A DNA stretch of 64,000 nucleotides from a virus (IMGVR_UViG_3300001485_000138:22675-86674); one strand, 5' to 3'; shown: positions 1,646-46,131, numbered from the stretch's first letter. Translations and numbers: made by a program. The notes: a model not told the origin generated them from the sequence alone.

Positions 1646-1674
1646 AGTCAGTGCTTTGCAATTTGGTTGCAAAG
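1646..1674 (+). repeat. family-1 hairpin element, copy 1
   Basis: AGTCAGTG-CTTTGCAA-TTTGG-TTGCAAAG. Confidence 0.9.
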
Positions 1675-1711
1675 AAAACCCTATAACATAATGCTTAAAC
1701 ATAATATAATA

Positions 1712-4700
1712 ATGGATGAACAACAATGGTTAAATGATAACCAACTCTCTATGACTATATATGATAAGAAGTATAAAAATGCTTCCGAATCATTTGACTC
1801 CTTTCTAAATAGAGTATCAGGAAATTATCCAGAAATGGAAAACCTGATAAAAGAAAAGAAATTTATATTTGGAGGTAGAATACTTGCAAGTAGAGGAGTT
1901 CAAGACAGGAAAGTTACATATAGTAATTGCTATGTTATTACTCCACCGGAAGATAACATAGAATCTATCTTTGAGTGTGCCTCTAAATTAGCAAGAACCT
2001 ATAGCTTTGGGGGAGGATGTGGTATAGATTTATCTAAGCTCAGACCTAATGGAGCAACAGTTCATAATGCAAGTAAGACTTCAAGTGGTCCAGTAAGTTT
2101 TATGGATATGTTCTCTCAGGTAACTCAAACTATATCTCAGAATGGTAGAAGAGGAGCATTAATGATTTCTCTTGATATTAACCATCCTGATGTAGAAGAG
2201 TTTATCAACTGCAAGACAGACCTTAACAGAGTCAACTTTGCTAATATCTCAGTCAGAGTAAATGATGAGTTTATGAAGGCTGTAGAAGAAGACAAAGATT
2301 ATATCCTCAGATGGCCATGTGATGCTAAGTATCTTAGTTCTATAGGTAGAGGACAAGTCATAGTAGATGAAAAGAATATTACTTATGACCACCTATATCC
2401 TATCTATAAATATGATGCTGAAGACAATAATACAGGAGAGATAACAGGCTATATCAAAAGAGTCAAAGCAAGAGACCTATTTAACAAGCTTGTAAAGAAC
2501 AACTGGGACTATGCTGAACCTGGTATCTTGTATTGGGATAGAATACAAGGCTATAATCTGTTGGATAACACAGACTTTAAGTATGCAGGAGTAAATCCGT
2601 GTGTAAGTGGAGACACCTTAATCCTTACTTCTGAAGGGTATCAGAGGATTGATAATCTTGTAGATAAGGAAGTTAATATCTGGAATGGGTATGAATGGAG
2701 CCAGGTTGTACCAAAAGTAACTGGACATAACCAGCCAATGTATAATATTACTTTCTCTAACGGTTGTCAACTTAGGTGTACCCTTTATCATAAATTCCTA
2801 CTTAAAGATGGAAACAGGGTTGAAGCTCAACAGTTAAAAGTAGGAGACAAACTTGCTAAATACACATATCCATGCATAATAAGCCCTGGGATTTCAGGAC
2901 AATCAAAACTATGTTATAGTCTTGGAGTATTTGCTGGAGATGGCTACATAAAAAGAAAAGATGAACCTGTAATATACTTATATGGAGAAAAACAAAAACT
3001 TCTTCCATATATAGTAGAAGGTAAAGTAAGAAAAGACCCTAAAGAGAATAGATTGGCAATTACTATTGGAAATACAAAAGAATGCTTTCTAAATGGTAAA
3101 ACATTTGTTCCTTCTCAATATTGGAAGATAACTGAGAAATTAGATTGGTTGGCAGGTCTGATTGATGCAGATGGATGCATTAATAGTTCAGATGGAAGCA
3201 TTTCAATATCTTCAATAGATAGAGCTTTCTTAAATAAAGTACAACTGATGTTACACACCATTGGAATAGCATCTACAGTAGCCATAATGCATAAAGCTGC
3301 AAATAGAAGACTGCCATCCCATAACTTAGAAACCCCTTATAAAGAGTATGCTTGTAAGGAATCCTACAGATTATCCATCTCATCCAACAATGTTAAAATA
3401 TTGCTAAAATTAGGACTTGAATTACATAGAATTAATGTATCCCAAAATCCTAACAGAGATGCTGCAAGATTTATATCTGTTGTAAGTATTGAAGATGATG
3501 GTATAAGTGATAATGTGTATTGTGTAAATGAACCTAAGAATCATACAGTTGTATTCAATGGTATAATGACAGGTAATTGTGCTGAGGAACCCCTGCCAGC
3601 AGGAGGTTCATGTCTTCTTGGCAGTATCAACTTGTCTGAGTTTGTGAAGAACCCATTTACATCTAACTCCTATATAGATTATGAAGCTCTTGAAGAAGCA
3701 GTTACTATAGCTGTAAAAGGACTTAACCAAGTACTTTCAGAAGGATTGAAGAAGCATCCTCTTAAAGAGCAACAAGAGTCTGTAGCAAATTGGAGACAGA
3801 TAGGTCTTGGAACATTAGGACTTGCTGATATGCTTATCAAGCTTGGTATAACCTATGGAAGTACAGATTCACTGAAGACTATAGACAGTGTCTATAAAAC
3901 TATTGCAAAACAAGCAGTATTAACATCACTTGAGTTAGCCAAAGTAGATTCATGCTATCCTATGTGTGATAAGAAGAAGCTTGCTGAATCCAGCTTTATT
4001 AAGAACCTTAATCTTCCTACAGAAGTACTTAAGGATATTAAGAAATACGGACTTTACAATAGTCAGCTTCTTACTTGTGCTCCCACAGGAAGTATAGGTA
4101 CTATGCTTGAAGTAAGTACAGGAGTAGAACCTAACTTTGCATTTAGCTATACAAGAAAAACTCAGTCTCTCGAAGGTAAGGACACATTCTATGAAGTAAA
4201 GGCAAAGATAGTCAATGACTATTTAGAAGTTCATAAGGATGAATCCTTGGAAAATCTTCCTGGATACTTTGTGACATCAGCAGACATAAAACCTATTGAC
4301 AGAGTAAAAGTACAAGCAGTTCTACAGAAATATACTGATGCCAGCATATCATCTACAGTAAATCTTCCTAAAGAGGCCACTGTTGAAGATGTGTATGACA
4401 TATACATGAACGCTTGGAAAGAAGGTCTTAAAGGCATCACTATCTATAGAAGTGGATGTAAGAGAGAAGGTATCCTTACTACTGAGAAAGTACAGCCAAT
4501 GGAAGTACCTGCTACAAAAGCCCCTAAAAGACCAAAAGAACTGGAAGCAGATTATTATACATTTAAAGTCAAAGGAGAACAATATATTGTATTAGTAGGT
4601 TTGCTGAATAAAAAACCTTATGAAATATTTGCTTTCCAACCAAACATCAGGTTTACAGCTACTGACCACAAAGGTATAATCATCAAGAAATCTAAGATGC

Positions 4701-5011
4701 ATTATAGCTTTGAGTCACCTATTCTCCAAATACCGGAACTGGAACTTGCTAATGATAATGTGGAAGAAAAGGCTGCTACACTATATGCTTCCATGCTTCT
4801 CCGTCATGGAGTAGATATAAAGTATATCATCAAGACTGCCAAAAAGGTTAATAATAACATAGCCTCTTTCAGTGCTGCTATGTGCAGGGTACTTGCCAAA
4901 TATATACCTTCTGAAATAACAGGAGAAAAGTGTCCTGAATGTGGTGGAGATGTAATAAATGAAGGAGGCTGTAAACACTGTAAAGACTGTGGATGGTCTA
5001 AATGTGAATAA
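1712..5011 (+). CDS. nrdJ: class II (adenosylcobalamin-dependent) ribonucleotide reductase precursor containing an intein
   Basis: FIFGGRILA, SNCYV, GGGCG, RRGALM, NP/CAE, IGLGTLG, TCAPTGSIG, DASISSTVNLP, KGITIYR and a C-terminal Zn ribbon (CPEC..CKDC). The TTG start at 1667 lies inside a hairpin, so ATG 1712 is preferred. Confidence 0.93.
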   Translation: MDEQQWLNDNQLSMTIYDKKYKNASESFDSFLNRVSGNYPEMENLIKEKKFIFGGRILASRGVQDRKVTYSNCYVITPPEDNIESIFECASKLARTYSFGGGCGIDLSKLRPNGATVHNASKTSSGPVSFMDMFSQVTQTISQNGRRGALMISLDINHPDVEEFINCKTDLNRVNFANISVRVNDEFMKAVEEDKDYILRWPCDAKYLSSIGRGQVIVDEKNITYDHLYPIYKYDAEDNNTGEITGYIKRVKARDLFNKLVKNNWDYAEPGILYWDRIQGYNLLDNTDFKYAGVNPCVSGDTLILTSEGYQRIDNLVDKEVNIWNGYEWSQVVPKVTGHNQPMYNITFSNGCQLRCTLYHKFLLKDGNRVEAQQLKVGDKLAKYTYPCIISPGISGQSKLCYSLGVFAGDGYIKRKDEPVIYLYGEKQKLLPYIVEGKVRKDPKENRLAITIGNTKECFLNGKTFVPSQYWKITEKLDWLAGLIDADGCINSSDGSISISSIDRAFLNKVQLMLHTIGIASTVAIMHKAANRRLPSHNLETPYKEYACKESYRLSISSNNVKILLKLGLELHRINVSQNPNRDAARFISVVSIEDDGISDNVYCVNEPKNHTVVFNGIMTGNCAEEPLPAGGSCLLGSINLSEFVKNPFTSNSYIDYEALEEAVTIAVKGLNQVLSEGLKKHPLKEQQESVANWRQIGLGTLGLADMLIKLGITYGSTDSLKTIDSVYKTIAKQAVLTSLELAKVDSCYPMCDKKKLAESSFIKNLNLPTEVLKDIKKYGLYNSQLLTCAPTGSIGTMLEVSTGVEPNFAFSYTRKTQSLEGKDTFYEVKAKIVNDYLEVHKDESLENLPGYFVTSADIKPIDRVKVQAVLQKYTDASISSTVNLPKEATVEDVYDIYMNAWKEGLKGITIYRSGCKREGILTTEKVQPMEVPATKAPKRPKELEADYYTFKVKGEQYIVLVGLLNKKPYEIFAFQPNIRFTATDHKGIIIKKSKMHYSFESPILQIPELELANDNVEEKAATLYASMLLRHGVDIKYIIKTAKKVNNNIASFSAAMCRVLAKYIPSEITGEKCPECGGDVINEGGCKHCKDCGWSKCE
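2600..3577 (+). mobile_element. intein (326 aa) with a LAGLIDADG homing endonuclease in nrdJ
   Basis: Starts CVSGDTLILT, ends HTVVFNGIMTGN, and is followed by Cys (+1). Contains YSLGVFAGDG and a literal LAGLIDADG (3149-3175). Removal restores NPCAEEPLP. Confidence 0.95.
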
Positions 5012-5016
5012 ATTTC

Positions 5017-5045
5017 AGTTAGTGCAGGGCAGTTCGGCTGCCCTG
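5017..5045 (+). repeat. family-1 hairpin element, copy 2
   Basis: AGTTAGTG-CAGGGCAG-TTCGG-CTGCCCTG. Confidence 0.9.
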
Positions 5046-5073
5046 TTCTATAATTAATAACCAAAAAATCAAA

Positions 5074-5610
5074 ATGAAAATTAAAGTATTAGAAAAAACA
5101 CCTGGATGTCTGCCTTTCATCATTAAGAAGGGTGACTGGATAGACCTCCGTCTGGCTGAGGAAGTAAAGCTTAAAGCTCCTCAAGCAAACAAAATGCATA
5201 TAAGGAATAAAAGCAAGGAAGATGTAGAGACTATCAGAACAAGAGATGTAGATTTTGACTTCTACGTAGCATCTCTCGGAGTAGCCATGCAATTACCTGA
5301 TGGCTTTGAAGCTATTGTAGCCCCACGAAGTTCTACATTTAAGAAGTGGGGAGTAACAGTACCTAATTCCTTTGGAGTTATAGACAATAGTTATAGTGGC
5401 AATAAAGATGAGTGGAAAGTACCACTCTTAGCTTTCCGAAAGACTACAATACCTAAAGGTACTGCCATTGTACAATTCCGCATACAACTGTCACAAAAGG
5501 CTACTATGTGGCAGAAACTCAAATGGCTTTTCTCATCATCAATAGAAATAGAATCAGTTCCATTCCTTGATAACCCAGACAGAGGAGGATTTGGAACCAC
5601 AGGTAATTAA
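5074..5610 (+). CDS. dut: trimeric dUTPase
   Basis: DWIDL, PRSS, GVIDNSYSG, IVQF and RGGFGTTG motifs. Confidence 0.93.
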   Translation: MKIKVLEKTPGCLPFIIKKGDWIDLRLAEEVKLKAPQANKMHIRNKSKEDVETIRTRDVDFDFYVASLGVAMQLPDGFEAIVAPRSSTFKKWGVTVPNSFGVIDNSYSGNKDEWKVPLLAFRKTTIPKGTAIVQFRIQLSQKATMWQKLKWLFSSSIEIESVPFLDNPDRGGFGTTGN

Positions 5611-5618: not shown

Positions 5619-5646
5619 CTATGCTATAACATTGTTATAGCCCTAA
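5619..5646 (+). repeat. family-2 hairpin element, copy A
   Basis: CTATG-CTATAAC-ATT-GTTATAG-CCCTAA. Confidence 0.8.
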
Positions 5647-6089: not shown

Positions 6090-6184
6090 TGATATACTTA
6101 GTTACCACACAACATCTTTGGCTGGGAAAATTATAAAACCTCTCAGCCAAAGAGTCTCTACAAGTTGACAACACCGTGCTATAA
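6089..6184 (+). pseudogene. frameshifted relic resembling the N-terminus of crAss-type family A DNA polymerase
   Basis: A TAATG-coupled start reads MIYLVTTQ; the adjacent frames give FGWENYK and SAKESLQV. The likeness to PolA N-termini is from memory and was not searched. Confidence 0.4.
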
Positions 6185-6215
6185 GAATGGAAAACAAATA
6201 ATAACGAACAGCAAG

Positions 6216-8108
6216 ATGATAATATACAACAAGACGGTTCTGGTCTATGATGTTGAGGTATTCCCCAATGTGTTCAGTTGCACTCTGAAAAATAGTGAGA
6301 CTGGACAGGTTAAAGTATATGAATTATCCCATAGGAAAAATAATATCATCGAGGAAGCTACAGCAATGGTCAATCTCTTCAAAGATGATAGGTATCTTTT
6401 CTGTGGATATAACAATATTCACTATGATAATCCGATTATGAACTTTATTATTGAGAACGTTGGTTCTATGCCCAACGATTATCAGAAAGTCTGTAATAGG
6501 ATTTATAAACTTAGTCAGCAGATAGTTACTTCTGAGACCTCAGAATCATGGAAACAATGGAAATATGCTACCAGGTTTGCAACTCTTGACCTCTTAACTA
6601 TGTTGTTTTCTCAAAAACTTAGAGTGGGTTTAAAGGAGATGCAAGTTACTATGCAATATCGTAATGTCCAAGAGTATGAAGGTGACTTTGAAAGCTGGCT
6701 TCCTGATAGTGAGATAGATACCATGTTAGCTTATAACCTTAACGATGTAGATTCTACTCTAGAGTTACTGAATAGATGTAAAAAGGATATTGATTTGAGA
6801 ATTGGTATTCAGCAGGAGTATGGAGTAGATGTACTTTCTAAAGATGGCATGAGCATTGGTACTGAGATTCTGAAGATTAAATATCTGGAGAAAACTAAGA
6901 AACAATGGTATCAAATCAAAGATCTTAGAAGTCCCTGTGATGAAATAGAATTGAGTAAGGTGATATTTCCTTTCATTCAGTATGAGACTCCTGTTCTTCA
7001 AAATCTACTTAAGGAAATGAAGCAGCAAACAGTCAGTGCTGGCAGAAAAGGATATGAGAAACACTTCCTTCTTGACAATGTAGAAGTAACTGTAGGAGTT
7101 GGAGGCATTCATACCAAGAACGATCCTGAAGCTATCATTCCTAAAGAGGATGAATTACTTCTGGACAGTGATGTTAATAGTCTATATCCAAGTCTTATCA
7201 TTAGTTACAGTCTTGTTCCTCAGCATTTAGGTAAAGAATTCCTTGAAATTTATGGTCAAGTCAGAGAGGAAAGACTTGCTGCTAAAAGAGTACATCAGGA
7301 TGTAAAGAATACAACTTTAAAGCTTGCTCTTAATGGTGCTACAGGTAACTATCAGAATCAATATAGTTGGCTTTATGACCCAATGGCTGTAATGAAGATT
7401 AGAATTAATGGTCAGTTACTTCTTCTTATGCTTACAGAAATGCTTCTGAAAGCTGGTGCAAGACTCAAACAACTTAATACTGATGGTATTCTCTATACTA
7501 TTCCAAAGTCTGTAGATTATCAGGTTATTCTTAAAGAATGGGAAGAAAAGACTAAACTTACTCTGGAGACAGAGGAATATGAAGCCTTCTATCAGTTTGC
7601 TATTAATGACTATCTTGCTATCGGTAAAGGGTATGCTGAAACCAAAGACAAAAAACTAATAAAACAGAAAGGTCTCTTTATCGATAAGGTAAAACTTGGC
7701 AAAGGTATGCAGCCTATGATTATTCCTGAAGCTCTCAATAAATATTTTGCAGATGGTGTTCCCATCGAGCAAACTATTAAAGAATGTAAAGATTTAAGTA
7801 AATTTATCACCTATCAAAAAGCTGATAAAAAATTTAGTGTAGAGTACAATAACAAACTAATATCCAGAATCAATAGGTATTATATTAGTACCAACGGCTC
7901 ATATCTCTATAAATGTGAAGTTGTTGATGGGAAAAGGATTGGCTATATCAACATGCTTAAAGCTTCTGGCGTAACTATAGTAAATAATCTGGATGAAGTA
8001 AAAGAGTTTCCTAAGAATATCAACTATAGATATTATATAGCAGAATGCAATAAAATTCTTGATCCTTTCATTCATCGACAAACTTCATTATTTGATTTTG
8101 TGGCTTAA
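6216..8108 (+). CDS. polB: family B DNA polymerase
   Basis: Exonuclease motifs VYDVEVF, GYNNIHYD and YNLNDV; polymerase motifs SDVNSLYPS, KLALNGATG and NTDGI. ATG 6216 preferred over TTG 6165. Confidence 0.93.
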   Translation: MIIYNKTVLVYDVEVFPNVFSCTLKNSETGQVKVYELSHRKNNIIEEATAMVNLFKDDRYLFCGYNNIHYDNPIMNFIIENVGSMPNDYQKVCNRIYKLSQQIVTSETSESWKQWKYATRFATLDLLTMLFSQKLRVGLKEMQVTMQYRNVQEYEGDFESWLPDSEIDTMLAYNLNDVDSTLELLNRCKKDIDLRIGIQQEYGVDVLSKDGMSIGTEILKIKYLEKTKKQWYQIKDLRSPCDEIELSKVIFPFIQYETPVLQNLLKEMKQQTVSAGRKGYEKHFLLDNVEVTVGVGGIHTKNDPEAIIPKEDELLLDSDVNSLYPSLIISYSLVPQHLGKEFLEIYGQVREERLAAKRVHQDVKNTTLKLALNGATGNYQNQYSWLYDPMAVMKIRINGQLLLLMLTEMLLKAGARLKQLNTDGILYTIPKSVDYQVILKEWEEKTKLTLETEEYEAFYQFAINDYLAIGKGYAETKDKKLIKQKGLFIDKVKLGKGMQPMIIPEALNKYFADGVPIEQTIKECKDLSKFITYQKADKKFSVEYNNKLISRINRYYISTNGSYLYKCEVVDGKRIGYINMLKASGVTIVNNLDEVKEFPKNINYRYYIAECNKILDPFIHRQTSLFDFVA

Positions 8109-8169
8109 AAAGTTATATACAGACCACTGGGTACATTAAAAAACATCAACCCTTTAATTTATAAATACT

Positions 8170-8356: not shown

Positions 8357-8479
8357 ATGCACAATGAAGAGGAAGAGGTGGAAAGAGACACTCTGGAGGA
8401 GGAGTTGTACTTACTTACCCATACTCCCCACCTCTTTCCTGTTAATACCCCAAACCGCGTGAATTATAAACAAGAGTAG
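8357..8479 (+). CDS. small acidic hypothetical protein (40 aa, not in the ORF track)
   Basis: ATG 8357 to TAG 8479, MHNEEEEVERDTLEEELYLLTHTPHLFPVNTPNRVNYKQE. It fills the gap, and its stop overlaps hairpin copy 3. Confidence 0.5.
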   Translation: MHNEEEEVERDTLEEELYLLTHTPHLFPVNTPNRVNYKQE

Positions 8480-8506
8480 TTAGTGCAAGATGATTCGGTC
8501 ATCTTG
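8478..8506 (+). repeat. family-1 hairpin element, copy 3
   Basis: AGTTAGTG-CAAGATGA-TTCGG-TCATCTTG. Confidence 0.9.
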
Positions 8507-9226: not shown

Positions 9227-9254
9227 CTATGCTGTAACACTGTTACAGCTCTAA
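9227..9254 (+). repeat. family-2 hairpin element, copy B
   Basis: CTATG-CTGTAAC-ACT-GTTACAG-CTCTAA. Confidence 0.8.
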
Positions 9255-10305: not shown

Positions 10306-10334
10306 AGTAAGTGCAGCAAGATTTGGTATTGCTG
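10306..10334 (+). repeat. family-1 hairpin element, copy 4
   Basis: AGTAAGTG-CAGCAAGA-TTTGG-TATTGCTG (one mismatch). Confidence 0.85.
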
Positions 10335-10354: not shown

Positions 10355-10792
10355 ATGATATTCAAAGATAAAGGTATTATAGAAGAACATATAAACCAAA
10401 TCTATCCAAACATCTTAGTAGTAGCATTTGGAGACTTGGAACAGGAGGTAAATAAATATTATAAACCTTATGATACAGACTATAATTGGATAGCTAAACC
10501 AAGAGAAATTTCCAATGCTGCTACATATCAGATAACAAATAAAAAGACATTGGATAATGGTCTGCTTGTATGGTTTTCCTCAATGGATAAATATTCAACA
10601 AAGACATTATGTCATGAGTCTGGACATGTAGCTCTTGAAATGTTTGCGTATATAAAGGAGAAAATAAGTACAGAATATCAAGAACCATTCTGCTATCTCC
10701 TCGGCTATATAGGCAAGTGTATCAACAATACATTCTACAAGTATAAAGAATATTTAGAAAAGCAAAAAGAAATCAATAACACTCAAAAGTAA
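10355..10792 (+). CDS. HExxH zincin-like metallopeptidase-fold protein
   Basis: LCHESGH (10613-10627) followed by EPFCYLLGY. Start moved to ATG 10355, downstream of hairpin copy 4. Confidence 0.65.
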   Translation: MIFKDKGIIEEHINQIYPNILVVAFGDLEQEVNKYYKPYDTDYNWIAKPREISNAATYQITNKKTLDNGLLVWFSSMDKYSTKTLCHESGHVALEMFAYIKEKISTEYQEPFCYLLGYIGKCINNTFYKYKEYLEKQKEINNTQK

Positions 10793-10816
10793 GTGCAAAG
10801 AGATTTGGTCTCTTTG
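10788..10816 (+). repeat. family-1 hairpin element, copy 5
   Basis: AGTAAGTG-CAAAGAGA-TTTGG-TCTCTTTG. Confidence 0.9.
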
Positions 10817-10828: not shown

Positions 10829-11824
10829 ATGAAACTGATAGAATCAAAAGCAGAATACATACCTCAAGAAGAAGGTCTTGAAGGTATTTATAAACAAATA
10901 GAACTTGCTGGAAGAACAGCCTATCACTCTCAAGATAAAATTACTCCTACATCCGCAAAAGATTTTGTTGATAAGATGATTAAATCAAAGCACGGGGCAG
11001 CCTTAGAGCATGGTACTGTGTATTTGAAAATACCTATCCATGAAATGAGATATGGTTTATTATTTTGGATAAATTCCTCCAATATATTTTATGAGAATAA
11101 CCCGTTTTCAAAAAGTATAAATGATAGAATATTTAAGTTATCTCCAGAGGATAATGCTTATATAGTAACTAACTATAGAGTTATTGTAGAAAACAGCAAG
11201 CTTGATGACCTTCAATATCTTTGCTCTCCTACTGAGTTTCATGAAAAAAGATATACCATGAGATTTACTTGTTCAAGAGCTATTGCAAATGAGCTGGTAA
11301 GACACAGAACCATGTCATTCCTTCAAGAATCAACCAGATATATCAATTATTCTAAGGAATGTCATGGAGGTGAGATTAACTTTATTAAACCTTCTTGGTT
11401 TAAAGAAAACCTATTATCAGTTGATTCAACAGTAGCACAACCATCTGACACTAATGGTGCTGTTTTCTATGAAAGACCATATAAGACTTATTATTTAGAT
11501 GGTACAGAGACTGATGGTTTTGATTGGGATAAAGAAGACTTTTTCATTCATAGTTGTCAAACAGCAGAGAGGTGTTACCTCCTTATGTTAGAAGAAGGTG
11601 CTACTCCTCAGCAAGCAAGAGATGTTCTTCCCAATGCTACTAAGACAGAGTTAGTGGTCACTGGTTTTGCCAGTGATTATAAACATCTTTTTGACCTCAG
11701 GTTATTTGGCAAGACAGGAGCCCCTCATCCAGATATGACTGACCTTATGCAGAAAGCTCAAGCAGCTATGCAAGAAGCTGGTATATGGAACGACATTATG
11801 AATAAACCATCTAAATTTGAATAA
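10829..11824 (+). CDS. thyX: flavin-dependent thymidylate synthase
   Basis: HGAALEH, ELVRHRTMSFLQESTRY, ARDVLP and HPDM motifs. The GTG at 10793 lies inside hairpin copy 5, so ATG 10829 is preferred. Confidence 0.9.
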   Translation: MKLIESKAEYIPQEEGLEGIYKQIELAGRTAYHSQDKITPTSAKDFVDKMIKSKHGAALEHGTVYLKIPIHEMRYGLLFWINSSNIFYENNPFSKSINDRIFKLSPEDNAYIVTNYRVIVENSKLDDLQYLCSPTEFHEKRYTMRFTCSRAIANELVRHRTMSFLQESTRYINYSKECHGGEINFIKPSWFKENLLSVDSTVAQPSDTNGAVFYERPYKTYYLDGTETDGFDWDKEDFFIHSCQTAERCYLLMLEEGATPQQARDVLPNATKTELVVTGFASDYKHLFDLRLFGKTGAPHPDMTDLMQKAQAAMQEAGIWNDIMNKPSKFE

Positions 11825-13745: not shown

Positions 13746-14318
13746 ATGCCAAACTGGGCTTCTGTATCCTACAGAATCGTAGGACCTAAAGAAATATTAC
13801 AAAAAGTATATGATGCTGTACAGTATCCTATGATAGAAGAAGGCTCAAGTGAAGATTGGGAAGGTAATGTACTAAAAACCCTTAAACCTGACTGGAAATG
13901 CCCTGAAGGGGAATCTATACGAGGATTCATACAATACTTTGATTTACAAAGATTAGATGAATGTGAATATATAATCTTAGATGCTGATGAAGCATGGGGC
14001 TTAACATGTTTCCATGAAGAACTCAGCAAGATATTCTCTGACCTTAACATCTTCTATATAGTTGAAGAACCTGGACTTGAAGTATATCACACTAATGATG
14101 TTGAAGGTGTATTCTTTCCAGAAAGATTATATGTAGATGCTTGTATTGATAATGACTATTATTCTGAATACTTCCAAACAGAGAAAGATGCCTATCATTA
14201 TATCGCAAAGATAACCAAAGGTGCAATCAAAAGCAAGGATGACCTTGAGAGATTCAACAAAGATAACACCAATGAAAATGATTTCATAAGCGTTCATGAG
14301 TTTGAAATTGATGAGTAA
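13746..14318 (+). CDS. YubB/DUF1281-like ferredoxin-fold protein
   Basis: MPNW N-terminus, DADEAWG and YIVEEPG. Confidence 0.55.
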   Translation: MPNWASVSYRIVGPKEILQKVYDAVQYPMIEEGSSEDWEGNVLKTLKPDWKCPEGESIRGFIQYFDLQRLDECEYIILDADEAWGLTCFHEELSKIFSDLNIFYIVEEPGLEVYHTNDVEGVFFPERLYVDACIDNDYYSEYFQTEKDAYHYIAKITKGAIKSKDDLERFNKDNTNENDFISVHEFEIDE

Positions 14319-14342
14319 GTGCTTCAAGATTCGGTCTTGAAG
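14314..14342 (+). repeat. family-1 hairpin element, copy 7
   Basis: AGTAAGTG-CTTCAAGA-TTCGG-TCTTGAAG. Confidence 0.9.
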
Positions 14343-14375: not shown

Positions 14376-14413
14376 AGGAGAGGGAGATAACAAGTGTATT
14401 TGCCTCTCCTTTT
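14376..14413 (+). terminator. intrinsic terminator closing the small-gene block
   Basis: AGGAGAGG...CCTCTCCT stem followed by a T run. Confidence 0.65.
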
Positions 14414-28048: not shown

Positions 28049-28090
28049 AGGAGAGGGAGTAATACCAACTTCCTCTCCCTTTCTTTTTTC
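28049..28090 (+). terminator. intrinsic terminator after the RNAP operon
   Basis: AGGAGAGGGAGT / ACTTCCTCTCCCT imperfect stem followed by TTCTTTTTT. Confidence 0.7.
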
Positions 28091-28127: not shown

Positions 28128-28775
28128 ATGTGGGAGAAAATCAAAAATAGCGGAATATCAAGAGGAATAAAAAAGCATATAAAAATTATAGCACTAATAT
28201 TCCTAATGGTAGAAGTATATATAATGTTTATAATAAATCCACACAATGAATACTCTACTTCTATTAAACTGTCGATTGCCATTTGTGGGTCTATTGCTAT
28301 TGATTTTTTATTATTGGGAATTATAGTGGCCATTTCAATAACCTACAATATTACAAAATCTGTAGCATACGGAATATGTAAAGGTTTAAAATTTATTAAA
28401 GAAAAATGTAAAAAGGAAAAAGACGCCTTTAAAGCAATCGGAGGATTTTTATTTATGATTATTCTTGTTGCTACTGGTATATGTGTTGTCTTTGCTGTAG
28501 GATGGGTTTTAGACCAAATTAAAGATATACTTGCAGTTATATTTTGTATTATTTTATATCTTATAATTATAATATTATACATTTATTTATTATGTCATAA
28601 TTACAAATATTTTAGAGAAAAGCATAGTATATTTGGTTCAAGCATGCTATCCTTCTTTAGATCGACTTTTATTTTTTGTATTATAGGAGGTGTACTACAT
28701 TTTATAGGAAAATGTGCACCAGATTTTGATACTACTGAATATCCAGGAAGATTAAAGATGGAACATCGTAGGTAA
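28128..28775 (+). CDS. AT-rich polytopic membrane protein
   Basis: About five long hydrophobic Ile/Phe-rich segments; it has its own promoter. Confidence 0.75.
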   Translation: MWEKIKNSGISRGIKKHIKIIALIFLMVEVYIMFIINPHNEYSTSIKLSIAICGSIAIDFLLLGIIVAISITYNITKSVAYGICKGLKFIKEKCKKEKDAFKAIGGFLFMIILVATGICVVFAVGWVLDQIKDILAVIFCIILYLIIIILYIYLLCHNYKYFREKHSIFGSSMLSFFRSTFIFCIIGGVLHFIGKCAPDFDTTEYPGRLKMEHRR

Positions 28776-28794: not shown

Positions 28795-28823
28795 AGTCAG
28801 TGCAGCCTGATTTGGTCAGGCTG
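28795..28823 (+). repeat. family-1 hairpin element, copy 8
   Basis: AGTCAGTG-CAGCCTGA-TTTGG-TCAGGCTG. Confidence 0.9.
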
Positions 28824-28836: not shown

Positions 28837-29268
28837 TCACACCTTCCTCCACTCCCTCCACATTCTCTCCACTAAATACCCTATAGTATAAGCAGGTTCC
28901 TCTCCTCTATCCTCAACATCATAGGCTAATAACATTGCCTGCTTCACATGTTCTGCCTCATGCACCAAAGAGTTAAGATAATCTCCTCTGTCTTCATGCT
29001 CATTAAACAGCACTATACTCACATGACTCTCCAAGTTACTATAAGTAACTGCCTTTGCCATCCCACTCCTCATCCACACATATATCTCTTCCAAGTCCCC
29101 TATTACCCCATCATAATAGGCATCCATAGTTAGTGCTTTGAAGTTTGGCTTCAAAGATAAAAACTCCTTCCTCACATCTCTAACCACATAACCAAAAAGG
29201 CTATAGTCCATATCATAATAAACTATAACCTTCCAGTATCCATCAACATCTATCACCTGTCTTCCCAT
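28837..29268 (-). CDS. HExxH zincin-like protein
   Basis: LVHEAEH followed by EEPAYTIGYL. Confidence 0.7.
   Translation of the reverse strand: MGRQVIDVDGYWKVIVYYDMDYSLFGYVVRDVRKEFLSLKPNFKALTMDAYYDGVIGDLEEIYVWMRSGMAKAVTYSNLESHVSIVLFNEHEDRGDYLNSLVHEAEHVKQAMLLAYDVEDRGEEPAYTIGYLVERMWREWRKV
29128..29156 (+). repeat. family-1 hairpin element, copy 9 (inside a - strand CDS)
   Basis: AGTTAGTG-CTTTGAAG-TTTGG-CTTCAAAG. Confidence 0.9.
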
Positions 29269-29275: not shown

Positions 29276-29303
29276 CTATGCTGTCATACCATGACAGTCC
29301 TAA
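29276..29303 (+). repeat. family-2 hairpin element, copy C
   Basis: CTATG-CTGTCAT-ACC-ATGACAG-TCCTAA. Confidence 0.75.
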
Positions 29304-40403: not shown

Positions 40404-42104
40404 TTAGTTGGTTTTAATTGCTACTAAATAATGAGGGCGACTACCTCCCTCACTTGGAACTTCTATTACTTCATAAGTAGGAGATGTATGCAATCCATTA
40501 TCCTTCTTATACCTTCCTACAAGGGTTTCTATTGCATCACGGACCCTATTATCTAAGAACTGGAAGTCATCTCTTGGAGTAGGGGCACCAGTAGCATCAT
40601 GTTCTTCTTTCAATATTCGTACACCTCTACCTTTATCTTTATCATCAAACATATCGCTGGTAGAAAAGTCTCCATACCAGTCTACTACATTCGAGTTAGT
40701 ATAACCCATAAATCTGTTTGGCAGATCTTCCCCCAGATAACCAGATACCCAGCCAAAGTCATATTTAAAATTCGGATTACCATTTGCTCTTTGTTTTTGA
40801 GCTTGTAAATCTTCATTACTAACATCATGGTCATATTTTACCCCACCTATAATTTCATATTCAAAATTCTGATTACCAACTTTTAAAGTGAATTTATTAC
40901 CATGTTTAACATTTTTGAAATTCCTATTTGCCTCATCCTTAGCTCTATTTAATAAAGCCATGCCTTGAGTTCCCTCAGTATTAAGTACAGGAGTGCCATC
41001 TTCACTTATCGTATAAGCAGGTATTTTTGATAAATCATCACCATTATTTCCGCCTTTTCCATTCCCATAAGTCAGATTACCACTACTACTTATACCAAAC
41101 TTACTTGGGTCTATATCATCCCTAAGCTTTATCCTGCCATTCTCATCTGTAGTGTATAATGGGTTATTCTGCATAGGTACTATATTACCCTTATCATCTC
41201 TGGTAAAGCCTTGTTGTAATAAACCAAAATTAAATACATCTACCTGACGTTGAGTTGACTCCCTCTGTCTTGCATCCTGTGCTGCCTGTGCTGCTGTCAA
41301 TACTCCAGGATTCTGCATTGCCTTCCTCTCTTCCTTATAAAGTGCTCCGTCAATCATACCATTGATTACACTTTCCCTTGCTCTTGCATAGTTATTACCT
41401 GTCAGGTTATCCTCAACTCCTGTCTCTTTTAATATGGAATCTACCTCTGCTTCAAGCTCTGGTATAGCACTTAAATCCTCTCTGAAAGCATACAACAACT
41501 CTGGATTATAACCATATCTCTGTATCATCTCCTGATAATACTTTGTAAGGTTTTGTACCTGGGTATTATCATATACCCTCGATGATGCCTGCTGTGAAGC
41601 TGTTGCCCCTCTCTTGTATAAGTCATTACCACTGATACCATACAGATTTGGATTACTACCTTCCAAGAAGTTATCTATAGTGAGATTATCATTGGCATAA
41701 AGCATGGATGGGTCTCTCATACTGGCATTCCTCCTGAGTTCCTTCTCTCTCTGTAATGCTTCATCTGCTCTCTGAAGTCTTCCTATCTCTCCATTATAAC
41801 GTCTTTTCAAATCTACCAAAGCTTTCCTGTTTTGGATATTAAGACCATTCCTTGCCATATCATCAGATGCTGCCTTGAGCTCATTGGCATAATTCTCATA
41901 TATCCTCTTGCTCTCACTTCCTTCAGGTAATGTACTGCTCAGATAAGCAAAGGCATTAGACTTGTCTGCAAGTTCTCCTGACTCTGCTTCCAACTGATTA
42001 TATACATCTGTGTACATGGCAAGGGGTTTAAGAAGGTCATCAAATGTCCTGTTCTTAAACACGTTATTTGCCTTTATATATAAATTCCTGTATGCCATCA
42101 GCAC
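40404..42104 (-). CDS. putative virion cargo protein
   Basis: 566 aa, lying between the cargo and ejection protein genes, with a helical N-terminus. Confidence 0.6.
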   Translation of the reverse strand: MLMAYRNLYIKANNVFKNRTFDDLLKPLAMYTDVYNQLEAESGELADKSNAFAYLSSTLPEGSESKRIYENYANELKAASDDMARNGLNIQNRKALVDLKRRYNGEIGRLQRADEALQREKELRRNASMRDPSMLYANDNLTIDNFLEGSNPNLYGISGNDLYKRGATASQQASSRVYDNTQVQNLTKYYQEMIQRYGYNPELLYAFREDLSAIPELEAEVDSILKETGVEDNLTGNNYARARESVINGMIDGALYKEERKAMQNPGVLTAAQAAQDARQRESTQRQVDVFNFGLLQQGFTRDDKGNIVPMQNNPLYTTDENGRIKLRDDIDPSKFGISSSGNLTYGNGKGGNNGDDLSKIPAYTISEDGTPVLNTEGTQGMALLNRAKDEANRNFKNVKHGNKFTLKVGNQNFEYEIIGGVKYDHDVSNEDLQAQKQRANGNPNFKYDFGWVSGYLGEDLPNRFMGYTNSNVVDWYGDFSTSDMFDDKDKGRGVRILKEEHDATGAPTPRDDFQFLDNRVRDAIETLVGRYKKDNGLHTSPTYEVIEVPSEGGSRPHYLVAIKTN

Positions 42105-44650
42105 TTCCCTCCTTTCTTCTTGGTAAGCTTACCCCCGTATTTCCTACTATTACCTTGCTTACCATACTTACTTTGGTTATAATAATCACTTCTGAGTACT
42201 CCTGTCCTCTCAAGCCATTTCAGTCTGTCTTCATCATAAGCTTCCTCTCCAATGTTTCCTAATGATGTAAGCAGATTACTGAGGTTAAGGCTCATACTCT
42301 TAGCTCTCCTGTCATCTATATCATCCATAAGACCATAAGCTGTACTAAGTCCTGATAACCTCTGCTTGGCTGCATCTCTTGTAGCTTCCTGATTGGCAAG
42401 CTGGGCCTTCATGATGCTTTCTGCATTAAACTGGTTGGTTCCTCGATTAAACTCTGCATCCTTCACCCTGTTGGTATTGTTATACTCAAGAGCTTTCATG
42501 TAAAGGTCATTGTCTGCTATAATACCATTATAGGCATTGGCAAGTAATCCTGCATTCTTACTTCCTGAGTTACCTCCACCATTTCTAATCATCCTGTCTG
42601 TACCTCTGAAATCCTGCCTGTTCCTATTCTGCTGGGCTAATATGTCCATTGGGTCTGTCCTCACATAATCTCCAATCAAGGCAGGAGATACCATAAGTGG
42701 GGTACTCATACCCTCTGTAGCATTTATAAGTGCTTGTGCCCTGCTATAATCTGGACTTCTAAGTGCTGCATTCATAAGTCCTAAGGCTCCTCCTATAGCA
42801 GGAATATACCTAAGCTTACTTGTAGCACTATGCTTCATTTCTACAGGTTCACTGCCTTCCAATAGATTTGGGTTTACTGGAGTAGTAGTTGTTGCAGGTG
42901 CTACAGCCTGAGGTGGTACAACACTACTTTGTACTGTTCCTACAGGTATCTGTTCTGTTCCTATCCTTGTAGTAACTTCAGGTTCTCCAACAAAACCATA
43001 GGAAGATATATCATAAGGTCTAAAAACATCCGGCCTTTCATTATAAAGTCTTTGTAATGCCTGATATACCTCATCTTCATTAATATAGTCATTGCTTCCT
43101 ACAATACTATTATAAAGCTTTCCATAGTCAATAGTGCTTCCATCTGTAGGTACTACATATTGATTCCACCAATTCTCAAATCCCCCATCAGGAAATTTAT
43201 TCACCTTACCTCCTTCTGCCATCATCTGAGGTTCTGCTCCTACCATCGCTTTACTTCCATCTGCTACCATAGGTGCTGCTACAGCAGGTTCTACTACCTG
43301 TTGTTCAGGAACTGCTTGTGCTAAGTCAGGATTACTTACTTCCCCTCCCCCACTCACTTCCTGCTGAATTTCTGGTGCAGGATTCATCACCATATTCATA
43401 ACAGCTGCTTGGTCTTCAGGACTTAAAGCTTCAAAAGCTTCTCTTGCTCTCTGTGCTTCCAACTCAGTCTTCTGCCTTTCCTGCTCTATCATAAGGTCTG
43501 ACATCATAGCATCATAACCTCTCTTGCTTATAGGGTCATTAGGATTTTCTTCACTCTCCTTGCCTAACTTCTTAGCTAAATCTGCAAAAGTCATCCTGGC
43601 TTTCTTGGATACGTGGAATTTCTTTCTGGTCTGCTCATCAGGCTCTATCCTGTTACTATATACATAGTCATTATATACAACCTCCCCTTCTTCTACAAGA
43701 TTAGGAACTCCTTGGTTATCTACACCTACCTGTACTCCTTCATAAGGATTTTCCTCGTGAGAACCACCAGCATCTATATGCACACTTCCATTACTCCAAT
43801 CACCTCCATGTGTCTGAATATCACCACCAAGAGCATAACCCAAACCTCCTACTAATCCTATCTGTCCTAATCCACCAAAAGGAGTTTGTGCAGTGAAGTT
43901 TGGCTTCACTGTTCCATTATTTTTATCTTTCTTACTCAACAGATAATCACTCATAAAGTTGTAGTTTACTGCCCCCATACCATCATCTCCTAAGAAACCA
44001 CCAAATGCTGCATAATTCCTAAGAAAGTTTCCCATCTGATTATCACTTATATTGTTTATATTATTCTCCAAATCTCTCTGTGCCCAATCCATAGCATTGG
44101 TTCTTTCTAACCTCAAGGCATCATTCTTTTTCCTTGCCTTACCCTTACTAAGCAACCCTCCTTTATAAGGATTTACAAAGTTTCCTACAGTCTCAGGTGC
44201 TTGTATCTCATCAAAACTATCTGCATCACTATGATAGTTTTTCAATGTAGATGTACCTTCATTGGCAGCTGCAAGGGCTTTTTCATCTGTCTTCATACCA
44301 GCAAGTCTGTTAATACCACCACCAATAACTCCTGATGCTGCTGATACAATACCACCAAGCACAGGATTAAAGTTACTTATCAGTTGTCCTGCTGTATTTC
44401 CTAAACTACCAACAGCATTTCCAGCACCAGATGAATAACCATCACTTATAAGTCCATGAGCCATTGTACCAACTGCTCCTCCTATAGCTCCTGCCATAGA
44501 TTTCAGTCCACTGCCTAACTGACCTAATGTCTTAGGATATATACCAAGGAAAGGTTTTTTTGCTGCTCCTACATTAGGCATCTGCAACCCCCAGTCATCC
44601 ATACTGGAAGTTGGTAACACAATATTTGGTTGTACTGCTAACCCATTCAT
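42098..44650 (-). CDS. putative virion cargo protein (Gly/Ala-rich)
   Basis: THGG...GGSHEENPYEGVQ...VEEGEV...YVYS segment recalled from crAss cargo proteins. The TTG at 44674 is part of the promoter box, so ATG 44650 is preferred. Confidence 0.65.
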   Translation of the reverse strand: MNGLAVQPNIVLPTSSMDDWGLQMPNVGAAKKPFLGIYPKTLGQLGSGLKSMAGAIGGAVGTMAHGLISDGYSSGAGNAVGSLGNTAGQLISNFNPVLGGIVSAASGVIGGGINRLAGMKTDEKALAAANEGTSTLKNYHSDADSFDEIQAPETVGNFVNPYKGGLLSKGKARKKNDALRLERTNAMDWAQRDLENNINNISDNQMGNFLRNYAAFGGFLGDDGMGAVNYNFMSDYLLSKKDKNNGTVKPNFTAQTPFGGLGQIGLVGGLGYALGGDIQTHGGDWSNGSVHIDAGGSHEENPYEGVQVGVDNQGVPNLVEEGEVVYNDYVYSNRIEPDEQTRKKFHVSKKARMTFADLAKKLGKESEENPNDPISKRGYDAMMSDLMIEQERQKTELEAQRAREAFEALSPEDQAAVMNMVMNPAPEIQQEVSGGGEVSNPDLAQAVPEQQVVEPAVAAPMVADGSKAMVGAEPQMMAEGGKVNKFPDGGFENWWNQYVVPTDGSTIDYGKLYNSIVGSNDYINEDEVYQALQRLYNERPDVFRPYDISSYGFVGEPEVTTRIGTEQIPVGTVQSSVVPPQAVAPATTTTPVNPNLLEGSEPVEMKHSATSKLRYIPAIGGALGLMNAALRSPDYSRAQALINATEGMSTPLMVSPALIGDYVRTDPMDILAQQNRNRQDFRGTDRMIRNGGGNSGSKNAGLLANAYNGIIADNDLYMKALEYNNTNRVKDAEFNRGTNQFNAESIMKAQLANQEATRDAAKQRLSGLSTAYGLMDDIDDRRAKSMSLNLSNLLTSLGNIGEEAYDEDRLKWLERTGVLRSDYYNQSKYGKQGNSRKYGGKLTKKKGGKC

Positions 44651-45616: not shown

Positions 45617-45655
45617 CTTCTATCTCTCAACTATAAACTTTAAACTATCAACTAA

Positions 45656-45684
45656 AGTCAGTGCTCTGTAGTTTGGCTACAGAG
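45656..45684 (+). repeat. family-1 hairpin element, copy 10
   Basis: AGTCAGTG-CTCTGTAG-TTTGG-CTACAGAG. Confidence 0.9.
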
Positions 45685-45973
45685 AATTCTTCATTCTCCA
45701 CATAGCACCATCCAGTTCATCCCTGTACCACCTGAGTTCCTTAAATCCTACTCTCTTCTTTCCTCTTGGCAGCTTCTGTGCTCTTACCAAATCATCAAAC
45801 CTGCTTCTGGAAAGATTAAGATAGCTACATGCCTGCTCCTTGCTCATCTCCTCATGAGCTATGATACTCATTATCCTCAGTGCTTCTTTCTCATCTATCT
45901 CACTGTTGCCTACATCAATCTTGTCAGCTACCTCTCTGAGGTATGTTGCTACTATCTTCCTAAAGTTAATCAT
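45677..45973 (-). CDS. AlpA/excisionase-like helix-turn-helix protein
   Basis: MSKEQACSYLNLSRSRFDDLVRAQKLPRG...LRW. Confidence 0.7.
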   Translation of the reverse strand: MINFRKIVATYLREVADKIDVGNSEIDEKEALRIMSIIAHEEMSKEQACSYLNLSRSRFDDLVRAQKLPRGKKRVGFKELRWYRDELDGAMWRMKNSL

Positions 45974-45993
45974 ACTTTATCTCCTTTCCACTG

Positions 45994-46001
45994 CAAAGGT
46001 A
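45994..46001 (-). promoter_or_regulatory. Bacteroidetes -7 element (TACCTTTG)
   Basis: 20 nt upstream of the HTH gene start. Confidence 0.65.
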
Positions 46002-46102
46002 CTACATGTATCTATTACCCACAAGAACCTAAAAGAGAGCCTTATCAAATATTAAGACTCTCTTTAGGTCAAACTCCTCTACAGAGCATTGTAAAGCACT
46101 AT

Positions 46103-46131
46103 AGTCAGTGCAACTCAATTTGGTTGAGTCG
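46103..46131 (+). repeat. family-1 hairpin element, copy 11
   Basis: AGTCAGTG-CAACTCAA-TTTGG-TTGAGTCG (one mismatch). Confidence 0.85.

What the first reader, a model, noticed from the sequence alone, without database searches (positions are those of the whole stretch)
1646..46131. Strand-polarised 29-nt hairpin element (11 copies): candidate promoter/recognition site for the crAss virion RNA polymerase
Seen: 11 copies (1646, 5017, 8478, 10306, 10788, 13226, 14314, 28795, 29128, 45656, 46103) share a fixed geometry: AGT[A/C/T]AGTG, an 8-bp stem starting with C, a TT[T/C]GG loop, then the complementary arm. All 11 stems differ in sequence, yet nine pair perfectly and two have one mismatch, so structure rather than sequence is conserved. 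All copies are on the + strand, including those among - strand genes. Seven lie in the first 14.4 kb, and six of these end 13-38 nt before a start codon (nrdJ, dut, 8523, 10355, thyX, 13274). I saw no TAnnTTTG host promoter in that block, while the late block has many. Known: phage N4 virion RNAP uses DNA-hairpin promoters, and the phi14:2 virion RNAP transcribes early genes. I do not know of a defined crAss vRNAP promoter. Inference: these are vRNAP promoters, and the copies in the late block would give antisense RNA against host-RNAP-driven late units. Alternatives are RNA processing sites, primase/replication signals or recombination sites. They lack the U tracts of intrinsic terminators.
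Basis: partly seen in the sequence, partly recalled or inferred. Interest (0 to 1): 0.92.

Follow-up and report, generated by a model that had tools for sequence, protein, structure and literature searches.

The report
Strand-polar hairpin signal in crAss-like phage
An uncultured crAss-like phage carries about 20 copies of a 29-base hairpin signal that all point the same way along the genome whatever the direction of the local genes; the signal is real, undescribed and confined to this phage lineage, and whether it is a promoter for the phage's injected RNA polymerase remains untested.

Summary
The element is (A/T)GTN(A/T)GTG, an 8-bp stem that starts with C, a TTYKG loop, then the complementary arm. 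It occurs 12 times strongly and once weakly in the window, and 18 times in the 86.7-kb record. Two more copies lie on a 120-kb metagenome scaffold of the same phage. All 20 copies lie on the + strand, seven of them in the minus-strand late block. All 17 aligned stems differ, and 133 of 136 pairs are Watson-Crick with no G-U.

The family is lineage-specific. It is kept in strain-level relatives (88-99% identity). Copies are gained, lost or disabled between strains, often beside swapped gene cassettes. High-scoring copies also sit in frame inside the primase and UDG genes.

The polarity follows the genome, not the genes, which argues for a DNA-level or one-directional process. A virion-polymerase hairpin promoter is my leading specific reading (about 0.3) but is not shown. 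Rivals are a single-stranded-DNA replication or recombination signal, a polar terminator, and an RNA processing site. The scan had already noted this same stretch in an overlapping window.

The parts
1646..1674 (+). Element copy AGTCAGTG-CTTTGCAA-TTTGG-TTGCAAAG. It starts 1 nt after the stop of the PD-(D/E)xK gene and ends 16 nt before the nrdJ ATG.
   Evidence: (47 bits)
5017..5045 (+). Element copy between nrdJ (stop at 5011) and dUTPase (ATG at 5074). Homology with strain L171, which has nrdD-HNH-nrdG instead of nrdJ, resumes at 5050.
   Evidence: (47.7 bits)
8478..8506 (+). Element copy 16 nt before the DUF4494 gene. Strains L010 and L171 carry a G-T pair in the stem and a different N.
   Evidence: (48.8 bits)
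10306..10334 (+). Element copy with one G-A mismatch. Strains L007, L171 and L183 have the perfect pair. It lies 20 nt before the HExxH gene (ATG at 10355).
   Evidence: (48.5 bits)
10788..10816 (+). Element copy whose TAA supplies the stop of the HExxH gene. It ends 12 nt before the thyX ATG.
   Evidence: (49.7 bits)
11649..11677 (+). Weak copy inside thyX. The 8-mer is intact, the stem starts with G (a G-T pair) and the loop is TTTTG. It may be degenerate or chance.
   Evidence: 29.7 bits; kept in L182 and L183
13226..13254 (+). Element copy that overlaps the stop of the upstream small ORF and ends 19 nt before the ATG at 13274.
   Evidence: (49.3 bits)
14314..14342 (+). Element copy whose TAA stops the last replication-module gene. 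It is followed by a canonical terminator (GGAGAGG...CCTCTCC TTTT, about 14376-14413), a TATCTTTG promoter motif at 14497 and the polymerase ATG at 14525.
   Evidence: (43.8 bits)
28795..28823 (+). Element copy in the 61-nt convergent junction, 19 nt after the stop of the strain-specific + gene 28128-28775 and 13 nt beyond the stop of the - gene 28837-29268. Strain L177 lacks both the element and the + gene.
   Evidence: (44.6 bits)
29128..29156 (+). Perfect copy inside the - strand HExxH-like gene 28837-29268, antisense to it. It is kept in L177.
   Evidence: (51 bits)
43883..43911 (+). It lies inside the - strand crAss_CARG1 gene 42098-44650 and is kept in L178.
   Evidence: (44.5 bits)
45656..45684 (+). 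Copy between two - strand genes. The stop of the HTH gene 45677-45973 lies inside the hairpin. It is antisense to the local genes.
   Evidence: (42.8 bits)
46103..46131 (+). Copy with one A-C mismatch. It overlaps the stop of the - gene 46115-46447 and lies about 100 nt from the - strand promoter motif at 46001.
   Evidence: (42.5 bits)

Best explanation
The elements are a lineage-specific, strand-specific hairpin signal whose orientation is fixed relative to the whole genome, not to the local genes.

I think a sequence-specific phage protein reads it at the DNA level, either as an extruded hairpin or as transiently single-stranded DNA. That protein would contact three features: the 8-nt word 5' of the stem, the TTYKG loop, and the purine/pyrimidine top of the stem. 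The rest of the stem only has to pair.

The single most likely concrete mechanism is a set of initiation or re-initiation sites for rightward transcription by the injected virion RNA polymerase (window 14525-23035). This would work like the N4 hairpin promoters. In the replication module such sites would start mRNAs a few nucleotides upstream of A-rich leaders. In the late block they would give antisense, rightward transcription, either for early silencing of late units or to pull the DNA into the cell.

Shown: existence, polarity, covariation, position, lineage restriction and strain turnover. Inferred: the DNA-level reading, the protein partner, and any initiation.
For: - Polarity: 20 of 20 copies are on one strand, seven of them in the opposite-sense late block. 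Gene-linked RNA signals would follow the genes.
- Stems: 133 of 136 cells are Watson-Crick with no G-U. The mismatches seen in all strains are C-A or A-C three times, G-T once and G-A once. This shows no tolerance typical of a + strand RNA.
- Information content is typical of a single-polypeptide polymerase promoter. Positions G2 T3 G6 T7 G8 C9 T17 T18 G21 are invariant, the top two positions of the 5' arm are purines in 17 of 17 copies, and the rest of the stem is free. N4 promoters follow the same logic of conserved loop and stem-top bases with other stem bases free if paired (PMC4496689).
- Ten copies end 12-48 nt before + strand start codons, in a module with only two intergenic host-type promoter motifs. 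In phi14:2 the homologous module is transcribed by the virion polymerase, which uses denatured DNA in vitro.
- High-scoring copies are held in frame inside the primase linker and the UDG gene, and are kept across strains. That is harmless for a promoter or a DNA signal but costly for a terminator or a cleavage site.
Against: - No such family, and no hairpin family with a recurrent loop, occurs in three relatives with about 50% identical polymerase (only 10 kb either side of the gene was seen), nor in the whole crAss001 and cr126_1 genomes.
- phi14:2 early 5' ends share no motif.
- There is no conserved initiation region downstream. The ATAAAAA tail occurs mainly where a + gene follows, and only one late-block copy (29128) has it.
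- Copy 14314 is followed by a canonical terminator about 35-50 nt downstream. The copy beyond the capsid gene is followed by a GC hairpin 14 nt downstream.
- Copy 28795 came with the gene upstream of it.
- In strain L175 the junction g11193 has a gene instead of the element. The neighbours there are tightly packed with no element.
- The first 11 kb of small early-type genes has none.
- Starts abut upstream stop codons (-6 to +5 nt in 11 of 12) more tightly than hairpin ends approach downstream starts.
Confidence: 0.3

Rival explanations
1. The element is a single-stranded-DNA signal unrelated to transcription. The hairpin would fold on one strand when that strand is exposed, for example on the lagging-strand template of a one-directional fork or during recombination-dependent replication. 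It could then serve as a priming, nicking or recombination site, perhaps marking junctions where gene cassettes are exchanged.
For: - Polarity follows the genome and is independent of gene direction.
- Stems are Watson-Crick only.
- Copies are tolerated anywhere the coding sequence allows, on either gene strand.
- Several strain-level breakpoints fall at element edges: 5050, and g11194/g11220.
- nrdJ and one HExxH gene are each bracketed by two copies.
- The phage encodes a DnaG-type primase, an AAA_24 (Sak4-like) protein and a PD-(D/E)xK nuclease. The longer scaffold carries a tyrosine integrase.
- Precedents exist for hairpins read as single-stranded DNA: integron attC sites, IS200/IS605 ends, REP/RAYT elements and the Ssn nucleases (PMC11893778).
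Against: - No partner enzyme was identified. No HUH, GIY-YIG or IntI-type domain was found among the proteins scanned, and that scan was incomplete.
- Spacing is irregular. There are pairs 333-482 nt apart and gaps of 14.5 kb and more than 11 kb, which is unlike regular priming.
- Other strain breakpoints are not at elements: the PolA/PolB swap at 6114/8152 and the LAGLIDADG gene insertion at g18707.
- At g11193 the other strain's gene is not flanked by elements, which argues against site-specific cassette integration.
- GC skew follows gene direction and gives no independent sign of one-directional replication.
Confidence: 0.27
2. The element is a polar terminator or insulator for rightward transcription by the virion polymerase, the host polymerase, or both. 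It would end or attenuate transcripts at gene ends in the + block and stop antisense read-through into the late genes.
For: - Fifteen of 18 copies in the record sit at gene 3' ends. Three of these are at the 3' ends of - strand genes.
- Copy 28795 fills the convergent junction and arrived together with a + gene that has its own TAnnTTTG motif, in a moron-like promoter-gene-hairpin layout.
- Copy 14314 marks the end of the replication module. Relative L006 has a canonical terminator at the matching site.
- One extra copy lies just left of the 3' end of the capsid gene, beside that gene's own terminator hairpin.
Against: - There is no U tract, and the stems are modest (RNA -5 to -15 kcal/mol).
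- Downstream + genes have no other promoter candidate. Efficient termination would therefore silence them.
- Perfect copies are maintained inside the primase and UDG genes.
- Canonical terminators already exist where needed, at about 14376-14413, at 28050 and at genome position 17170.
Confidence: 0.18
3. The element is an RNA-level punctuation signal in + strand polycistronic transcripts. A specific endonuclease site or a protective 3' hairpin would separate cistrons, or an operator would tune translation of the next gene, as the RNase III sites of T7 do.
For: - Copies abut upstream stop codons and precede A-rich leaders.
- As RNA, the invariant loop bases T17 and G21 form a U-G closing pair around a triloop.
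- Strain variant L010/L171 carries a G-T pair in the stem.
Against: - Seven of 20 copies are antisense to the local genes.
- There is no G-U among 136 stem cells, and A-C or C-A mismatches outnumber G-T.
- In-frame copies lie within essential genes.
- The 8-9-bp stem is too short for RNase III.
- No Rfam family matches.
Confidence: 0.1
4. The element is selfish or functionless: a repeat that spreads in one orientation and persists where it is tolerated.
For: - The family is restricted to one lineage, and copies are gained and lost between strains.
Against: - All 17 aligned stems differ. The copies therefore cannot be recent duplicates of one another.
- Perfect pairing with a fixed flank and loop across unrelated stems requires selection on each copy.
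- No transposase-like partner was found among the proteins scanned.
Confidence: 0.05

Closest known systems
Hairpin promoters of the coliphage N4 virion RNA polymerase (P1-P3)
   Same: Both are short DNA hairpins in which the loop and some stem-top bases are conserved while the other stem bases only need to pair. Both are strand-specific, and both belong to a phage that injects its own RNA polymerase, which prefers single-stranded templates (PMC4496689; phi14:2 preprint).
   Different: [quoted passage not shown] They are read by a T7-like single-subunit enzyme with help from gyrase and SSB. Here about 20 copies are spread over at least 96 kb, with an 8-bp stem, a 5-nt loop and an 8-nt 5' word. 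The polymerase is the unrelated two-barrel crAss type. No start site is known.
T7-group phage promoters and RNase III sites
   Same: Both are many high-information signals, all in one orientation, at gene junctions and sometimes inside genes. They vary in number between related phages.
   Different: All T7 genes share that orientation, so no T7 copy is antisense. T7 promoters are linear duplex sequences. T7 RNase III sites are long irregular RNA hairpins.
PeSL (promoter-early stem-loop) cassettes of T4-type phages
   Same: Both are repeated stem-loop-containing regulatory units that flank individual, often strain-variable, genes and coincide with shuffling junctions.
   Different: PeSLs carry a host-type early promoter and follow gene direction. 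The present element has no host promoter motif, and its polarity is genome-wide.
Integron attC sites, and REP/RAYT or Ssn-type single-stranded-DNA hairpin sites
   Same: In all of these, structure rather than sequence is conserved. They are read on one strand, sit at the 3' ends of gene cassettes or in intergenic DNA, and can be co-oriented.
   Different: attC sites are 57-141 nt with paired core sites and extrahelical bases, and need an IntI integrase. REP and NTS families share one stem sequence within a genome and come with a RAYT or GIY-YIG gene. None of these features is present here.

Membership tests
N4-type virion-polymerase hairpin promoter | 5-7-bp stem with a 3-nt loop that has a purine at its centre (PMC4496689) | tested here: not met
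   The stem is 8 bp and the loop is the 5-nt TTYKG. Only as + strand RNA or DNA with a T-G closing pair does it become 9 bp with a 3-nt loop.
N4-type virion-polymerase hairpin promoter | Conserved loop and stem-top bases, with the remaining stem bases free as long as they pair | tested here: met
   T17, T18, G21 and the C9-G29 pair are invariant. The top of the 5' arm is RR in 17 of 17 copies. Seven of 8 pairs covary.
N4-type virion-polymerase hairpin promoter | A few copies at the leading end of the genome, upstream of early genes | tested here: not met
   About 20 copies lie between 11 kb and beyond the record's right end. None lies in the first 11 kb, and seven are in the late block.
N4-type virion-polymerase hairpin promoter | Read by a T7-like single-subunit virion polymerase, with transcription starting at a fixed distance downstream | not testable with these tools
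   The polymerase here is homologous to the crAss001/Kolpuevirus 'putative RNA polymerase' genes, a different fold class according to the phi14:2 preprint.
Intrinsic (Rho-independent) terminator | G+C-rich hairpin directly followed by a U tract | tested here: not met
   The tails are ATAAAAA or mixed. Canonical terminators with T runs exist elsewhere in the genome.
T7-type RNase III processing site | Long (about 20 bp) irregular RNA hairpin, co-oriented with the genes it separates | tested here: not met
   The stem is a perfect 8-9 bp, and seven of 20 copies are antisense to the local genes.
Integron attC | 57-141-nt imperfect palindrome with inverse core sites (RYYYAAC...GTTRRRY) and extrahelical bases, beside an IntI/attI platform | tested here: not met
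   The element is 29 nt with perfect stems, and the 8-nt word has no inverted partner 3' of the stem. The only recombinase seen is an Arm-DNA-bind_5/SAM_5-type integrase more than 60 kb away on the longer scaffold.
REP/RAYT, IS200/IS605 or NTS/Ssn hairpin repeats | Copies share one stem sequence, and the genome encodes a cognate Y1-HUH or GIY-YIG enzyme | tested here: not met
   All 17 stems differ. No such domain was found in the 56 window/record proteins and 8 scaffold proteins scanned. Not every ORF was scanned.
Any Rfam RNA family | Score at or above the family's gathering threshold | tested here: not met
   Only a tRNA reached threshold. One copy gave a sub-threshold PreQ1 match (18 bits against 39), which I take as chance.

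The most novel reading that the evidence does not exclude
These are the first defined cis-signals of a crAss-type two-barrel virion RNA polymerase. They would be DNA-hairpin promoters that evolved independently of the N4 ones. They are placed co-directionally along the whole genome, so that rightward transcription both expresses the replication module and runs antisense through the late block. That antisense transcription would either hold late units silent early in infection or draw the rest of the 120-kb genome into the cell.
Probability: 0.2. Interest if true: 0.85.

Novelty: new variant of a known kind. Interest (0 to 1): 0.62.

Why it matters
No promoter, terminator or other cis-signal is known for the virion RNA polymerase of crAss-like phages, which dominate mammalian gut viromes. 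The one experimental study found no motif at early 5' ends.

This element gives a sharply defined 29-nt candidate with built-in compensatory controls, because every copy has a different stem. That makes the question directly testable with the phage's own polymerase in vitro.

If the element instead proves to be a single-stranded-DNA or termination signal, it would still be an undescribed kind of genome-wide directional marker in a double-stranded-DNA phage.

Two things limit its reach. It is confined to one uncultured lineage, probably from the gut or rumen, and no host is in hand.

Tried and rejected
- Close relatives through single proteins in IMG/VR: none found. Megablast against phage records: none.
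- Pattern scans: IMG/VR gave nothing real. JGI metagenomes gave only three strain-level contigs and one chance hit. A host-derived repeat is therefore unlikely.
- Rfam gave nothing. The weak PreQ1 resemblance (a hairpin plus an A tail) was rejected as chance.
- Loop or 8-mer pairing with downstream sequence (a pseudoknot): no consistent complement was seen by eye.
- CRISPR-repeat mimicry and REP-type copy-paste were rejected because the stems all differ.
- Stop-codon readthrough or frameshift signal: rejected because downstream ORFs have their own starts in various frames, and seven copies are antisense.
- GC skew as a guide to replication direction: it simply follows gene direction.
- Pfam on 10 of the small ORFs in the first 11 kb, looking for a partner protein: no informative domains. 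A second batch failed on a mistyped reference and was not repeated.
- Comparison of the two HExxH paralogues, to see whether copy 29128 is an insertion: too diverged to tell.

Full report
**What is there**

The window is the right 64 kb of an 86,674-bp record of an uncultured crAss-like phage. Its virion RNA polymerase gene is at 14525-23035. The N-terminal 1200 residues of that protein are about 32% identical to those of Kolpuevirus/DAC15-type Steigviridae. They are 41-52% identical to those of about 65 uncultured relatives.

A structural scan adds a twelfth window copy at 43883 and finds none on the - strand. Over the whole record it gives 18 on + and 0 on -.

A covariance model built from 17 copies scores 18 sites at 29.7-51 bits, all on +. 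The best other site on either strand scores 14.8 bits. Fourteen of the record's 15 perfect 8-bp/5-nt-loop hairpins are this element.

The record is incomplete. Its proteins also lie on a 120,340-nt metagenome scaffold. On 20 kb of that scaffold beyond the window's right end I found two more copies, both in late-gene intergenic DNA and both in the window's + orientation:
- TGTTTGTG-CCAGATAA-TTTGG-TTATCTGG, next to the capsid gene.
- TGTCAGTG-CAAAGTGA-TTTGG-TCACTTTG.

That makes 20 of 20 copies on one strand, seven of them among genes of the opposite sense.

**Anatomy**

- Invariant positions are G2 T3 G6 T7 G8 C9 T17 T18 G21, and G29 is nearly invariant.
- Across all copies and strains the 5' word generalises to DGTNWGTG and the loop to TTYKG.
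- The two top positions of the 5' arm are purines in 17 of 17 copies.
- The other stem positions are free. Seven of 8 pairs change on both sides, and 97.8% of cells pair against 59% in shuffles and 30-47% when the partner is slid.
- None of the 136 cells is G-U.
- Adding the strain variants, the imperfect pairs are C-A or A-C three times, G-T once and G-A once. There is therefore no sign of wobble tolerance on the + strand.
- No sequence is conserved outside the 29 nt. The ATAAAAA tail occurs mainly where a + gene follows, and only one late-block copy (29128) has it. It probably belongs to the A-rich leader of that gene.
- Predicted hairpin energies are -5 to -15 kcal/mol as RNA and -4 to -9.5 as DNA. 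As RNA, T17 and G21 close a triloop.

**Position**

In the + block, 12 copies are intergenic. Eleven of them start between -6 and +5 nt from the last base of the upstream stop codon, and the word itself often supplies the TAA or TAG. Ten end 12-48 nt before the next ATG.

Neighbouring genes belong to the replication and nucleotide module: helicase, AAA_24, primase, ThiF-like E1, UDG, PD-(D/E)xK nuclease, intein-bearing NrdJ, dUTPase, PolB, DUF4494 and ThyX.

Three copies lie inside + genes:
- One 49.8-bit copy is in frame in the variable linker between the zinc-binding and catalytic parts of the primase.
- One is in the UDG gene.
- A weak one is in thyX.

In the late block:
- Copy 28795 fills the 61-nt convergent junction.
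- Copies 45656 and 46103 overlap the stop codons of - strand genes.
- Copies 29128 and 43883 lie inside - strand genes, an HExxH-like protein and crAss_CARG1.

Four pairs lie 333-482 nt apart: g15317/g15683, 10306/10788, 28795/29128 and 45656/46103 (the g prefix means coordinates of the whole record). The first 11 kb (small ORFs without Pfam matches) and the two giant genes at 14.5-28 kb have none.

Host-type TAnnTTTG motifs in intergenic DNA are rare in the + block. They occur at g13007 and g17153, at 14497 before the polymerase gene, and at 28109. They are common in the late block.

Canonical terminators with T runs exist at about 14376-14413 (35-50 nt after copy 14314), at 28050 and at g17170.

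**Distribution among phages**

Three relatives with about 50% identical polymerase lack the element in the matching 10 kb on either side of the gene. Their genes are packed with almost no spacers, and one has an ordinary terminator where copy 14314 sits.

The whole genomes of crAss001 and cr126_1 lack it. A generic scan for hairpin families with a recurrent loop found none in any of these five sequences, whereas the present family stood out at once in this phage.

IMG/VR has none. JGI metagenomes gave only short contigs of the same species. Rfam has nothing.

In the papers I could search no crAss virion-polymerase promoter is defined. [quoted passage not shown]

**Turnover between strains**

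Contigs at 88-99% identity keep most copies, including those inside genes. In L175 the UDG copy has the consensus AGTCAGTG word. There is also gain, loss and disabling:
- At g11193, strain L175 has a 187-aa gene exactly in place of the element and no element at all.
- At g13858, L175 has changed 5 of the 13 conserved flank and loop positions and none of the 16 stem positions. The background divergence is about 6%.
- Strain L171 has NrdD, an HNH endonuclease, an element with a TGTTAGTG word, NrdG and then dUTPase, in place of NrdJ flanked by two elements. Homology resumes 5 nt after the end of copy 5017.
- Copy 28795 and the + gene before it are absent from L177, where a gene of the opposite sense sits instead. 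That + gene is alone in its 90% cluster.
- Other strain breakpoints are not at elements: the PolA/PolB swap at 6114/8152 and a LAGLIDADG gene insertion at g18707.

**Reading**

Three facts constrain the mechanism most.

First, the orientation follows the genome and not the genes. This is hard to reconcile with any gene-linked RNA signal. It points to a DNA-level signal or to a process that runs one way along the genome.

Second, each copy has its own perfectly paired stem under a fixed flank and loop. The copies are therefore not duplicates, and each is under selection for recognition by a specific factor.

Third, excellent copies are maintained inside essential genes. That is harmless for a promoter or a DNA signal and costly for a terminator or a cleavage site.

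A hairpin promoter for the injected polymerase fits these facts. It also fits the lack of host promoters in the module and the N4 precedent of conserved loop and stem-top bases with the rest free if paired.

Several findings count against it:
- The family is absent from all relatives examined.
- There is no conserved start region.
- A terminator follows directly after copy 14314.
- Copy 28795 arrived together with its upstream gene.
- Several junctions do without the element in other strains.

A single-stranded-DNA replication or recombination signal fits the positions without conflict. However, it lacks a partner enzyme and a regular spacing. A polar terminator explains the gene-end and junction copies and the late-block copies, but not the copies inside genes, the missing U tracts or the missing downstream promoters.

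My odds are:
- Promoter-like initiation site: about 0.30.
- Single-stranded-DNA signal: about 0.27.
- Polar terminator or insulator: about 0.18.
- RNA processing or translation signal: about 0.10.
- Selfish or functionless: about 0.05.
- Something else: the remainder.

**Verdict**

The element is undescribed. It works most like the N4 hairpin promoters but meets only one of their defining features, so it is not a member of that family. I class it as a new variant of a known kind (structured, factor-specific hairpin signals of phage genomes) and score interest at 0.62.

Noticed in passing
window 5619-5645, 9227-9253, 29276-29302: A second hairpin family has the form CTATG, a 7-bp stem (CTRTNAY), an AYY loop, the complementary stem and YCCTAA or CTCTAA. 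It has three copies, all on the + strand. One of them lies in the late block just beyond the start of the - gene 28837-29268. It shows the same genome-wide polarity as the main family.
   Followed up: partly
window 6115-8151, compared with L010 385-2431 and L171 2915-4975: At this locus, strains 90-94% identical in the flanks carry a family A DNA polymerase (686 aa, DNA_pol_A_exo1 plus DNA_pol_A). The window has a PolB-type polymerase there instead (phrog_1252). This is a polymerase swap within one species-level lineage.
   Followed up: partly
window 1691-5011, compared with L171 3-1875: The window's class II ribonucleotide reductase NrdJ carries an intein with a LAGLIDADG domain. In strain L171 it is replaced by the C-terminal part of an NrdD-like protein, an HNH-like gene and a likely NrdG. 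The identities of the L171 genes rest on motifs read by eye and on synteny with L006.
   Followed up: partly
L184 and L186 (scaffold ERZ28612940 scaffold_245, 120,340 nt): The 86.7-kb record is incomplete. The scaffold continues beyond the window's right end with ring proteins, the capsid gene and a run of further late-strand genes without Pfam names (among them 765-aa and 391-aa proteins). It also carries a tyrosine integrase (Arm-DNA-bind_5, SAM_5, Phage_integrase) and a RepL-like gene. These are either unusual for a crAss-like phage or a sign of a neighbouring element. About 6 kb at one end of the scaffold and 9 kb at the other were not read.
   Followed up: partly
L175 13328-14477, against record position 18707/18708: Strain L175 has a 1.15-kb insertion carrying a LAGLIDADG-type gene in the long 678-nt gap upstream of the ThiF-like cassette.
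   Followed up: no
window about 14376-14413 and 28050-28078: Two canonical terminators share the stem GGAGAGG(GAG)...CCTCTCC followed by a T run. A similar GGGAGAG...CTCTCCC hairpin follows the capsid gene (L184 about 2128-2150).
   Followed up: no
L181 1442-11230: In one strain contig the gene called at the polymerase position is more than 3541 aa long and carries PIF1, AAA_30 and UvrD_C_2 hits on record. This could be a helicase fusion or a gene-calling artefact.
   Followed up: no
L001 309-382: One ordinary tRNA gene (65.6 bits) lies in the left arm of the record, near the tRNA-like RNA noted by the first stage.
   Followed up: no
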